Source: Eledone cirrhosa (Eukaryota). Taken from it: a stretch of 64,000 nt of DNA. The stretch spans positions 1,612,001 through 1,676,000 of the forward strand of contig OZ024766.1 of the NCBI GenBank assembly GCA_964016885.1, given 5' to 3'. The notes under the pieces were generated by a model. That model had not been told where the DNA came from and did not search any database. It was given only the letters and a program-made list of their open reading frames with translations. Both the position numbers and the translations under genes were made by a program. Positions 7,804-54,286 of the stretch are shown here, one piece after another (the stretch's first letter is position 1; each line of letters starts with the position of its first letter).

Positions 7804-7881
7804 GCCGTGATATATATTTCGAGGATGATTTTGGCTACGTAATTCAGCATAGAAGCCAGTGCCATGATCTCATCAGACAGC
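7804..7881 (-). ncRNA. Type I hammerhead ribozyme (subfamily 2, long stem II)
   Basis: gctgt-CTGATGA-[long imperfect hairpin]-GAAA-tatata-TC-acggc; 5-bp stem I, AUC cleavage triplet. Confidence 0.7.
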
Positions 7882-14002: not shown

Positions 14003-14330
14003 AGGTCAGTGTCCAAGTCTCAGACCCGTACAGCAGCGCAGACTCCACTACAGCAATGAAGAGGCGGATTTTCAGGTCTTTACGAAGTCAGTTCAAAAGT
14101 GACACACAGGAGACTGAGGTTAGCTGGACATGCTCACCGACATCCAGAGTTGACATTGAACTCAGTGCTCCTGTGGGAACCCCTACATGGACACACTGGA
14201 AGAGGGAGACCGAGGTTAACGTATGTTGATGCCCTAAGAACAGACACTGGTCTGTTGGAGACGCAGGACATGGCAGCGATGATGAGGGACAGAGACCGCT
14301 GGAGAGAACTCGTCCATGGATCTTGGGAAT
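14003..14330. mobile_element. RTE-type LINE fragment with an inverted 5' segment
   Basis: Minus 14003-14090: LRKDLKIRLFIAVVESALLYGSETWTLT. Plus 14095-14330: RRLRLAGHAHRH...GRGRPRLTYVD...DRDRWRELV. Confidence 0.85.
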
Positions 14331-14359
14331 TTTACCTGGCCTATATATATATATATATA

Positions 14360-14880
14360 TATAGTGTTATACTTGGGGAGGGTCATATTGTTGTAATAAT
14401 ATTGCCAGAAATAATAACAGAACACATTCACTGTTTGGTTTGGGTTGGTTTTCACTTCTGTATCTTTTACATCTCCATAGTTAATTTATTTGGCAATCAC
14501 TGTTTATCATTGACTGATCAACAGTTAAAAAATATATATATATATATATAGTCTATCAAAGATCTTTCATTGCACATCTGCAACTTCATCATAAATTAAA
14601 TAAAAATGGTGTAGACATTACACTACAACGGGAAGAAACATAATAGTATACTGATGATGTCACAGATGTGTGACGAAAGAACTTTGTTAGACTATATATA
14701 TATTTATATCTGTATCTTTAACTGTTGGTCATTAAATGATAAACATTGATTGCCAAATAAATTAACTATGGAGATATAAAAGATACAGAAGTGAAAACCA
14801 ACCAAACAGTGAGTGTGTTCTGTTATTATTTCTGGCAATATTATTACAACAATATGACCCTCCCCTAGTATAACACTATA
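14360..14880. mobile_element. Foldback/MITE element with about 170-bp terminal inverted repeats
   Basis: 14360-14530 is the reverse complement of 14712-14880; terminus GTGTTATACT(T/A)GGGGAGGGTCATATTG; flanked by (TA)n. Confidence 0.85.
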
Positions 14881-18499: not shown

Positions 18500-19228
18500 A
18501 GGTTGATACAGCTTGGCACAAGTGATGTGTGCATATGAACAGCAATGTTGCATGGTAGTGAGACCAGGGCGCTGTCTGTAGAAGACTTGCGTAGATTAGA
18601 AAGAAGCGAAGCTTGAATGCTCCGATGAATGTGTAATAGTAATATACGCGAACGGCAAAGCATAAACGAATTGAGAGAGAGGCTGCGTTAGCGGTAGACA
18701 GCTTCTGCGACCTAGGTGACCGAATTAGCAGCGGAGGCGGGTGTTCAGAAAGTACAATAACTAGGGTAAGAACGGGATGGAAGAAGTTCAGGGAACTACT
18801 GCCACTGCTGGCTGCAAAAGGCTTCTCCCTCAAAATGAAAGGCAGACTGTATGATGCGTGTATCCGAACAGCAATGTTGCATGGTAGTGAGACCTGGGCG
18901 CTGAAGGTGGAAGACTTACGTAGATTAGAAAGAAACGAAGCCTGCATGCTCCGATGGATGTGTAACAGTAATATACGCGAACGGCAAAGCATAAACGGAT
19001 TGAGAGAGAGACTGAGCATAAGAGGAATCAAACGCTATGTGCAGGAGAGGGGATTGCGTTGGTATGGACATGTGATGCGTATGAAGGATGACAGCTGCAT
19101 AAAAAGGTGCAGAGCACTAGAAGTCGATGGCAGCCGCGGAGTGGGGAGACCCAAGATGACCTGGGATGAGGTGATAAAAGCCGACCTTACCCAATTACAC
19201 CTCTCAAAGGTCATGTCACATGACCGTG
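18500..19228 (+). mobile_element. RTE LINE ORF fragment (post-RT region), partly duplicated
   Basis: MKGRLYDACIRTAMLHGSETWAL...LRWYGHVMRMKDDSCIKRC...GRPKMTW. Confidence 0.92.
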
Positions 19229-19421
19229 CCACCAGACCCCACCAGTCACCATTGCATGTGCCCCATCAGTGACAGCTACACCACACCACACAAGTCATTG
19301 CATCTGCCCCACCAGTCATCATAGCTACACCACCACCACCATCACCACCACCACCGCTCCAGGGACACACAGACATTATTAAGTCCACTCCTGCCAAAAG
19401 GTGTTTCCAGGCAGCATGCCA

Positions 19422-39569: not shown

Positions 39570-39610
39570 CAATATTAAATAAATGGAAACTATATTTATA
39601 AAACCATATT

Positions 39611-39676
39611 TATTTCATTATATATATTTCGGGGATATCATATTAACAATATGCTATGCCTTCCTCAGACAAAATA
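39611..39676 (-). ncRNA. Type I hammerhead ribozyme (subfamily 1)
   Basis: tattttgt-CTGAGGA-[14-position hairpin, 11 pairs]-GAAA-tatata-TA-atgaaata. Confidence 0.72.
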
Positions 39677-39915
39677 CAATATAAACAGTTTTATAGATAA
39701 ATAGATTCGACATACCGTTATAACACCGACTTCCATTTGAAGAGGTTTAAGCTGGCAGTCCATATTTATACACACATACACACACGTATATATATACACA
39801 CACACACACATATATATATACACACACACACACATATATATATACACACACACACACATATATATATACACACACACACACACATATATATACACACACA
39901 CACACACATATATAT

Positions 39916-52059: not shown

Positions 52060-52122
<63 letters not shown>

Positions 52123-52156
52123 CACAAGTGTTTTTTAAGCTTCATATCATGTTCCC

Positions 52157-52227
52157 TATTTTATCTGATGAGAACGCAAATATCATCCCATGATGATATT
52201 TGTTTTTGAAATGCGCATAATAAAATA
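52157..52227 (+). ncRNA. Type I hammerhead ribozyme (subfamily 1)
   Basis: tattttat-CTGATGA-[gaacgcaaatatcatc ccat gatgatatttgttttt]-GAAA-tgcgca-TA-ataaaata; predicted cleavage after A52219. Confidence 0.8.
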
Positions 52228-52257
52228 CTTGGAACTCTTTTAACCATGTTTTGATAT

Positions 52258-52300
<43 letters not shown>

Positions 52301-52304
<4 letters not shown>

Positions 52305-52401
52305 AACGAGTAGGACCCCGACGGCTGAGCTCAAACCGTTTCGACGGCTAATTCTGGACGAAACGGCTTGAGCTCAGCCGTCGGGGTCCTACTCGTTCCT
52401 A
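52301..52401. repeat. Palindrome, 43-bp arms (42/43 paired), 15-nt loop
   Basis: TAGGAACGAGTAGGACCCCGACGGCTGAGCTCAA...; related fragments at 53229-53341 and 54350-54382. Confidence 0.92.
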
Positions 52402-52477
52402 TTACCCACTCTACTACCCTAAGTATTGAGTACTTTGGTGCGTTATGGTCCACCTGGTTCCTTACCACATTTCCTTC

Positions 52478-52539
<62 letters not shown>

Positions 52540-52760: not shown

Positions 52761-52804
<44 letters not shown>

Positions 52805-52840
52805 ATTCAAAATATAAATATAGACATTCACGTAATCAAA

Positions 52841-52912
52841 ATATATTTTATTATATATATTTCGGAGGTACTGTGTTGTTTTCTCAGTACGTCCTCATCA
52901 GATAAAATATAT
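52841..52912 (-). ncRNA. Type I hammerhead ribozyme (subfamily 1), best-formed copy
   Basis: atatattttat-CTGATGA-gga c gtactg [11-nt loop] cagtac c tcc-GAAA-tatata-TA-ataaaatatat; 11-bp perfect stem I. Confidence 0.85.
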
Positions 52913-52999
52913 AAATTGATGTATGACATACGTCAACTGTGCTGATGGGTCAATTCCAGTCTTGGCAGTTATATATATATATATATATATATATATAAC

Positions 53000-53118: not shown

Positions 53119-53350
53119 TTCTACCTGGAGTTGCGACCGATAGATAGTATTAGCAATTGGAAAGACCAACGGAAACATAGTTTCCTCGGTCCGATTTGAC
53201 GAAAGTCGATCGACTAGAAAAAATATATAACGAAGGAGTTGTGGTAAGGAACCAGGTGGACCATAACGCACCAGAGTACTCAATACTCTGGTAGAGTCCA
53301 GCTCAAGCCGTCGTAACGGCTTGAGCTCTGCCGTCGGGGTTAAACATTTT

Positions 53351-54183: not shown

Positions 54184-54211
54184 CTGACGAAGGGCTTGTG
54201 CCCGAAACGTC
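54184..54211 (+). ncRNA. Minimal hammerhead-like core; stem I not evident
   Basis: CTGACGA a gggc ttgt gccc GAAAC GTC. Confidence 0.5.
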
Positions 54212-54286
54212 GTCGTCCTTAGATGCCATTAGATATATACACAAATATACATACGTACGTACATGTATGCACGTACACATACGTAC

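What the first reader, a model, noticed from the sequence alone, without database searches (positions are those of the whole stretch)
52157..52227. Second subfamily-1 hammerhead with different stem II/III sequence but the same fold
Same stem I (tattttat/ataaaata) and core as 52841-52912, but stem II is an unrelated 15-pair hairpin and the stem III palindrome is AUGCGCAU instead of AUAUAUAU. Sequence turnover with preserved pairing argues for selection on structure. It faces the 52841 copy convergently about 600 bp away, so transcripts of either strand would carry a cleavage site.
Basis: partly seen in the sequence, partly recalled or inferred. Interest (0 to 1): 0.75.

Follow-up and report, generated by a model that had tools for sequence, protein, structure and literature searches.

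The report
Hammerhead in Hydra-type Penelope end repeat
This is a real hammerhead-shaped RNA motif, predicted to cut itself when two copies pair, in a short leftover end-piece of a known kind of jumping gene with thousands of copies in this animal genome; its fold is kept across related families, but this copy and its facing neighbour are most likely ordinary, independent insertions.

Summary
Confirmed, but a known kind. 52157-52227 is a type I hammerhead with an intact core: 8-bp stem I, 3+12-bp stem II, palindromic AUGCGCAU stem III, predicted cut after A52219. It lies in a 149-bp, 5'-truncated pseudo-LTR piece set in (TA)n. Full elements read hammerhead, ~800-aa ORF, hammerhead. Their protein has the Hydra-clade Penelope motifs and folds closest to telomerase RT. 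The family has 2,049 exact-pattern copies; a wider pattern gives 11,259. Stem II is not unrelated to the neighbour's; its base (3 bp, C/Y mismatch) is shared. The convergent pair is ordinary: 10 of 100 anchors have another family's hammerhead within 750 bp, and such pairs occur in all orientations. About 98% of copies read through the cut site, and I found no clear truncation peak there. Cleavage is untested. The scan noted Hydra-type hammerheads with this mismatch before, on other DNA of this genome.

The parts
52122..52270 (+). 5'-truncated pseudo-LTR (pLTR) fragment of a Hydra-clade Penelope-like element, family A; ends at the family's first fixed 3' site, about 45 nt past the predicted cut
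   Evidence: 97.3% over 150 nt to the 3' pLTR of element L092; end classes; no PLE ORF match in the window (tblastn)
52157..52164 (+). hammerhead stem I, 5' arm (UAUUUUAU)
   Evidence: 100% of cells paired in 12 families
52165..52171 (+). catalytic core CUGAUGA
   Evidence: modal in 11 of 12 clusters of 3 or more copies, CUGACGA in the twelfth
52172..52207 (+). stem II: G-U, A-U, A-U, C/U mismatch, then 12 bp and a CCAU loop
   Evidence: 6 of the 7 basal pairs tested change on both sides across families
52208..52211 (+). catalytic core GAAA
   Evidence: invariant in alignment A1
52211..52218 (+). palindromic stem III AUGCGCAU: 2 bp plus a tetraloop in one molecule, 8 bp between two molecules
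   Evidence: forcing the monomer helix costs 3.5 kcal/mol; the minimum-energy homodimer forms the 8-bp helix
52219..52219 (+). A17; predicted cleavage 3' of this base (AUA triplet)
   Evidence: position; cleavage inferred from hammerhead rules, untested
52220..52227 (+). stem I, 3' arm (AUAAAAUA); a distal extension pairs 52151-52155 with 52231-52235
52063..52120 (.). (TA)n tract at the 5' junction (target site)
   Evidence: sequence
52263..52302 (.). (TA)n tract at the 3' junction (target site)
   Evidence: sequence
52767..52970 (-). separate pLTR fragment of related family B, holding the hammerhead 52841-52912; independent insertion
   Evidence: 91-94% to family-B loci L061 and L166

Best explanation
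The motif is the hammerhead of a Penelope-like retrotransposon family with Hydra-clade protein motifs, left here as a 149-bp end fragment in a TA microsatellite; the RNA likely cuts after A52219 only when two copies pair through the palindromic stem III, and this single copy is most likely inert. Shown: the fold; the place of the motif in both end repeats of full elements (about 210 nt before the first ATG and about 1 kb after the stop); thousands of copies; two fixed 3' ends; covariation between families; neutral decay of inserted copies. Inferred: the element's RT/endonuclease cuts (TA)n and starts copying inside the RNA at one of two sites about 45 and 130 nt past the ribozyme. Early stop of copying leaves short hammerhead-bearing pieces like this one, often as two opposed arms. 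The template is mostly uncut RNA, so cleavage does not set the insertion end. Selection keeps the fold only in the source elements, where a transcript with two end repeats can form the dimer, perhaps helped by the element's protein. The facing family-B copy is a second insertion into the same TA-rich hotspot.
For: Fold and chance controls. Copy numbers: 2,049, 9,404, 11,259. Same-strand hammerheads on both sides of the ORF in L092 and L097 (family A) and in L098, L100-L103 and L109 (sister family, 821-aa open frames). Protein: RLRW, SDKT, YRDD, CxCx5C, CxxC and CxH, matching the Hydra description in PMC8557442 section 11. Top fold matches are telomerase RTs (E 4.9e-9). Ends: of 89 family-A copies, 52 at site 1, 29 at site 2, 3 read into the ORF, 5 other; 20 of 23 opposed arm pairs have one of each. 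Covariation. Stem III is self-complementary in the modal sequence of all 12 clusters. The homodimer is -41.1 against 2 x -15.1 kcal/mol. Neutral decay. Neighbour statistics. Published: PLE hammerheads with palindromic helix III, low activity, dimer-dependent (PMC4209133); a protein-assisted PLE hammerhead, internal RT start and uncut RNA as main template (PMC11167929).
Against: No cleavage or expression data. Rfam and Pfam give no significant match. The endonuclease is identified by motif (LIY...YFG) and by the published clade description, not by a profile or fold hit. The clade call rests on motifs, with no tree. Family A has G10.1-U11.1, not the G-C pair that PMC4209133 calls highly conserved. 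PMC7229834 reports efficient cleavage by most invertebrate retrozyme hammerheads, whose helix III is 2 bp plus a tetraloop, so the dimer requirement is not certain. In one search one of five measures (pairs changed on both sides, 7 against 5.1) was reached by 36/500 shuffles, and the families are related, which inflates such tests.
Confidence: 0.85

Rival explanations
1. Same element, but the hammerhead cleaves as a monomer, so each solo copy in a host transcript is a live cleavage site.
For: A 2-bp helix III with a tetraloop is described as typical of invertebrate retrozyme hammerheads that cleave efficiently (PMC7229834 passages). Long stems I and II hold the fold. This copy has an intact core.
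Against: Forming the monomer helix costs 3.5 kcal/mol. All 12 families keep full 8-nt self-complementarity, including the loop positions. 9,404 copies read through the site.
Confidence: 0.2
2. The structure is kept for binding the element's protein or for positioning the RT start, and cleavage is slow or secondary.
For: About 98% of copies come from uncut RNA. No clear truncation peak at the cut. In the lizard PAc element, core mutants did not affect insertion in vitro and no RNA-seq reads ended at the site (PMC11167929). The first stem II pair varies G-C, G-U, A-U, next to a fixed C/Y mismatch.
Against: Catalytic core bases are invariant across 12 families. They show no shared variants among 22 family-A copies, whereas flanks have 52 non-singleton differences. 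That is what selection for catalysis predicts.
Confidence: 0.2
3. The convergent A-B pair is a host-selected device that cuts transcripts of both strands.
For: Both cores are intact and face each other 736 bp apart (core to core).
Against: No A-B pairing at 29 other A loci or 24 other B loci. Of 53 mixed-family pairs within 1.5 kb, 26 are direct, 19 convergent and 8 divergent (pairs not independent). Unrelated repeats lie between the two. Intact cores are expected in young copies (18 of 22).
Confidence: 0.04
4. It is a non-autonomous retrozyme (tandem, circular RNA) unit.
For: Type I hammerhead in a short AT-rich repeat; retrozymes are proposed PLE derivatives (bioRxiv 10.64898/2026.07.22.740005).
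Against: The fragment is collinear with the pLTR of protein-coding elements. Same-family neighbours within 1.5 kb are 39 divergent, 5 direct and 2 convergent of 46, and none of the 5 direct pairs is family A.
Confidence: 0.03

Closest known systems
Hydra-clade Penelope-like elements and their hammerheads (Craig et al. 2021, PMC8557442; passages, section 11, supplement passages and part 2 of 59 read), including Hydra-1_Obim
   Same: C-terminal endonuclease; RW, DKT, CxCx5C, CxxC and CxH motifs; (TA)n targets; type I hammerhead near the 3' end with a self-complementary helix III; tandem and inverted pLTR layout with a tail.
   Different: A distinct family: the listed Hydra-1_Obim hammerhead has other stems. 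The repeat unit here is 3.7-3.9 kb (published: generally under 3 kb), with a ~75-aa low-complexity linker insert. Stem II is longer and has a fixed C/Y mismatch not shown in the stem II columns of the listed Hydra motifs. The tail is about 85 nt (30-40 bp in the paper's general PLE description).
Minimal and palindromic-helix-III hammerheads of metazoan PLEs (Cervera and de la Pena 2014, PMC4209133, parts 1-2 of 4 read; Lunse et al. 2017 known only through the citation in PMC6765202)
   Same: Type I topology, large helix II, palindromic helix III, thousands of solo copies, many families with compensatory changes in one genome, and opposite-strand motifs 100-700 bp apart.
   Different: Longer stem I (8 bp plus extension), no extra base between A9 and 10.1, and G-U or A-U instead of G-C at 10.1-11.1 in most families.
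PAc Poseidon element of the green anole (PMC11167929, passages read)
   Same: Hammerhead in the pLTR, AT-rich targets, two fixed ends (tail), insertions made from uncut RNA.
   Different: Other clade; there the ORF start lies inside the hammerhead, here about 210 nt after the cut.
Animal non-LTR retrozymes (PMC7229834, passages and section 14; bioRxiv 10.64898/2026.07.22.740005, part 1 of 5)
   Same: Type I hammerhead, dimer-type helix III, link to PLEs.
   Different: Those are non-coding tandem units; this is a piece of a coding element.

Membership tests
Type I hammerhead ribozyme | Core CUGANGA ... GAAA ... UH with three helices, open at stem I | tested here: met
Type I hammerhead ribozyme | Helices supported by covariation | tested here: met
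   stem II 6 of 7 pairs and stem III 1 of 4 change on both sides; stem I 0 of 8 (5 invariant, 3 one-sided)
Type I hammerhead ribozyme | Match to an Rfam hammerhead model | tested here: not met
   none at E <= 10 (a library match, not part of the biochemical definition)
Type I hammerhead ribozyme | G10.1-C11.1 closing pair (highly conserved per PMC4209133) | tested here: not met
   family A has G-U; the 12 families show G-C 2, G-U 4, A-U 6 as modal pairs
Type I hammerhead ribozyme | Self-cleavage 3' of H17 | not testable with these tools
   no assay; genomic truncation test inconclusive
Dimer-type (palindromic helix III) hammerhead | Self-complementary helix III, weak as monomer, stable as dimer | tested here: met
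   computed only:
Penelope-like element | Direct pLTRs with hammerhead around one ORF; inverted 5' copy; tail | tested here: met
Penelope-like element | Telomerase-like reverse transcriptase | tested here: met
   model pLDDT 74.5; best matches TERT; YRDD; Pfam blank
Penelope-like element | C-terminal GIY-YIG endonuclease | tested here: inconclusive
   motif-level only (LIY...YFG...R...H); no profile or fold hit among the rows shown
Hydra clade | RWK-type motif, DKT, CxCx5C linker, CxxC and CxH around E and N | tested here: met
   (RLRWT/RLRWI, SDKT, CNCRIKNKC/CNCPVRTKC, CNLC, CLH); RW is followed by T or I, not K; homologues have RWK
Hydra clade | Insertion into (TA)n | tested here: met
Hydra clade | Placement in an RT phylogeny with published Hydra proteins | not tested
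   reference proteins seen only as cut text in the supplement
Neptune clade (first guess) | CX2-5CxxC linker and DKG | tested here: not met
   protein has CxCx5C and DKT
Non-LTR retrozyme | Non-coding head-to-tail tandem units | tested here: not met

The most novel reading that the evidence does not exclude
This lineage of Hydra-type elements has evolved a gated hammerhead. A fixed C/pyrimidine mismatch at the fourth rung of stem II and a weakened closing pair keep it off until two copies, or the element's protein, come together. The family-A clade has moved to a GC-rich palindrome (AUGCGCAU) that cannot pair with the AU-rich palindromes of its sister families, which insulates its RNA from cross-activation by more than ten thousand related copies. 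With about 98% of insertions made from uncut RNA, cleavage would act as a copy-number brake or switch, not as an end-forming step. The family series would then be a ready natural test set for what PLE hammerheads do.
Probability: 0.2. Interest if true: 0.55.

Novelty: new member of a known kind. Interest (0 to 1): 0.22.

Why it matters
As a locus it is ordinary: one of thousands of decaying end fragments. As a family it offers a clean series, 12 related families with a fixed core, swapped stem II pairs and three palindromes, plus many copies with open 821-aa frames in a sister family. That series could test whether Penelope hammerheads need dimers or protein, and why their cores are conserved when insertions come from uncut RNA. 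PMC8557442 calls this function still unclear.

Tried and rejected
Rfam over the window and over 141 bp: no hammerhead among the rows shown. Pfam and PDB sequence search: nothing significant for the ORF; the ESM Atlas gave RVT_1 and HTH_animal clusters as leads only.

Genomic trace of cleavage: 201 copies break within about 4 nt before the cut against 9,404 read-through (2.1%). About 6 of the 30 loci inspected were small indels or changes, not truncations (read by eye). Controls gave 31 (upstream, 3 positions; rough denominator 2,049) and 108 (downstream, no denominator taken), so there is no clear excess. Of the first 50 of 140 close mirror junctions, 2 were exact at the cut and 6 centred on the stem III palindrome (counted by eye); microhomology explains them.

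Palindrome as a family code: not unique, three palindromes for 12 families. Lunse et al. 2017 could not be read. Whether the locus lies in a host gene was not tested. Literature searches showed no paper describing this family. PMC13282606 (passages) lists Penelope families without the word ribozyme in its main text. Its supplements, and 58 of 59 parts of the PMC8557442 supplement, were not read in full and may bear on that.

Full report
Observation. The window reads TATTTTAT CTGATGA [36 nt] GAA ATGCGCAT A ATAAAATA at 52157-52227. This is a type I hammerhead with an intact core and an AUA triplet; the cut would fall after A52219. Folding gives stem I and a stem II of 3 + 12 pairs around a C/U mismatch (z -4.3). 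A strict descriptor finds this site and 52841-52912 in the window and nothing in 100 shuffled windows. Rfam does not recognise it.

What carries it. A DNA search of the own genome (3.0 Gb) returned 46 matches at 96-100% from 40 scored of 279 candidates. Exact patterns give 2,049 family-A copies, 9,404 for the clade's cut-site region and 11,259 for a pattern that covers both window hammerheads, each with 0 reversed-control hits. Longer copies lead upstream into an ORF. In 20 loci fetched from a protein search, the motif stands on the ORF strand on both sides in 8 (L092, L097, L098, L100, L101, L102, L103, L109). It lies about 210 nt before the first ATG in L094 and about 1 kb after the stop; the repeat unit is 3.7-3.9 kb. 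The window copy matches the 3' repeat of L092 at 97.3% over 52122-52270, and the window has no match to the ORF. It is a 5'-truncated end fragment between two (TA)n tracts.

The protein. Pfam and PDB sequence searches were blank. A model built on 15 homologues (pLDDT 74.5) matched telomerase RTs best. The motifs RLRW, SDKT, YRDD, CxCx5C, CxxC and CxH fit the Hydra clade as described in PMC8557442 section 11, and not Neptune, which I first assumed. The lead to Hydra came from earlier notes of this scan. No tree was built, and the endonuclease is identified by motif only.

Selection on structure. The 245 hammerheads found in 165 loci fell into 25 clusters, 12 of them with 3 or more copies; 13 single-copy clusters were left out. 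On one real copy per cluster, 97.4% of 227 pair cells pair, against 90.1 shuffled and 33-63% for slid partners. There are 28 cells changed on both sides against 12.0; 6 of 7 basal stem II pairs change on both sides; the count of such pairs (7) was reached by 36 of 500 shuffles. Relatedness inflates these controls. Stem I is nearly invariant. The modal stem III is AUGCGCAU, AUAUAUAU or AUAUGUAU, always self-complementary. In 22 family-A copies not chosen by their hammerhead, singleton changes are 1.5% in the core, 1.1% in stem I, 1.4% in stem II, 3.0% in stem III and 1.4% in flanks; non-singleton variants are 52 in flanks and 0 in core and stem I. The sample is small, but it reads as purifying selection in source elements and neutral decay after insertion.

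Mechanism. Shown: of 89 family-A copies, 52 end about 45 nt after the cut, 29 about 130 nt after it, 3 run into the ORF and 5 are other; 20 of 23 opposed arm pairs have one end of each kind. This is the PLE tail, which PMC11167929 ties to internal RT start sites. About 98% of copies run through the cut site, and I found no clear excess of 5' ends there. Computed: the monomer helix III costs 3.5 kcal/mol, and the homodimer's minimum-energy fold is the double hammerhead with an 8-bp helix III. Inferred: the element's protein cuts (TA)n and copies mostly uncut RNA from the internal sites; early stop leaves pieces like this one. The ribozyme likely works as a dimer in transcripts with two end repeats. 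Published work agrees on low, dimer-dependent activity (PMC4209133; review PMC6765202) and on protein help. PMC7229834 reports efficient cleavage for most invertebrate retrozyme motifs with a 2-bp helix III, so monomer activity is not excluded.

The convergent neighbour. It belongs to family B. B is linked by position to ORF remains 35-57% identical to the sister-family protein; that link is less firm than for A. No other A locus (0 of 29) or B locus (0 of 24) held the other family. Of 100 anchors on one chromosome arm, 10 had some other family's hammerhead within 750 bp and 21 within 1.5 kb; mixed pairs occur in all orientations. The two palindromes do not pair, and the two motifs are on opposite strands. 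PMC4209133 already notes opposite-strand motifs 100-700 bp apart. The pair is best read as two insertions in a TA hotspot.

Verdict. Real, well supported, and a new family of a known kind: the hammerhead in the pseudo-LTR of a Hydra-type Penelope-like element. Interest is low for the locus and modest for the family series. Hammerhead numbering and the cleavage rule are from established knowledge. The host looks like an octopus-type genome (my inference; not identified).

Noticed in passing
window 54184-54212 (+): Minimal hammerhead-like motif: CUGACGA, extra A, 4-bp stem II with UUGU loop, GAA, palindrome ACGU, C17. Stem I looks broken. Probably another Penelope family.
   Followed up: no
window about 39604-39680 (-), core at 39668: A third member of the same hammerhead lineage (cluster 16 type, CUGAGGA core, AUAUAUAU palindrome), missed by my first descriptor.
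   Followed up: partly
window 7804-7881 (-): Type I hammerhead-like motif with a 49-nt stem II region, AUAUAUAU palindrome, C17 and a 5-bp stem I.
   Followed up: no
window 52303-52485 and 53223-53350: Another (TA)n-inserted repeat family. The first copy begins with a long inverted repeat (about 52303-52402); similar copies occur in L092. No hit in earlier notes by sequence.
   Followed up: partly
family-A copies, e.g. L016, L017, L018, L128: 5' ends cluster near 69 nt before the core (24 of 89 at 66-71 nt), at a CATATG palindrome. This is either a transcript start or a microhomology junction; the sample is partly biased.
   Followed up: partly
L098-L103, L107-L109, L111: Young sister family with 818-821-aa open frames, 97-99% identical to each other, whose hammerhead has A-U at 10.1-11.1.
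   Followed up: partly
one search list, e.g. L174, L179: Recurrent 3-nt loss (ATA) right at the cut site in about 14 of 100 listed matches (by eye). Slippage in ATAATA is the simple reading; trimming and re-ligation of cut RNA is not excluded.
   Followed up: no
window 14060-14551, 18643-19272: Fragments that look like LINE (RTE-type) reverse-transcriptase C-termini (label from my recall, not from a search).
   Followed up: no
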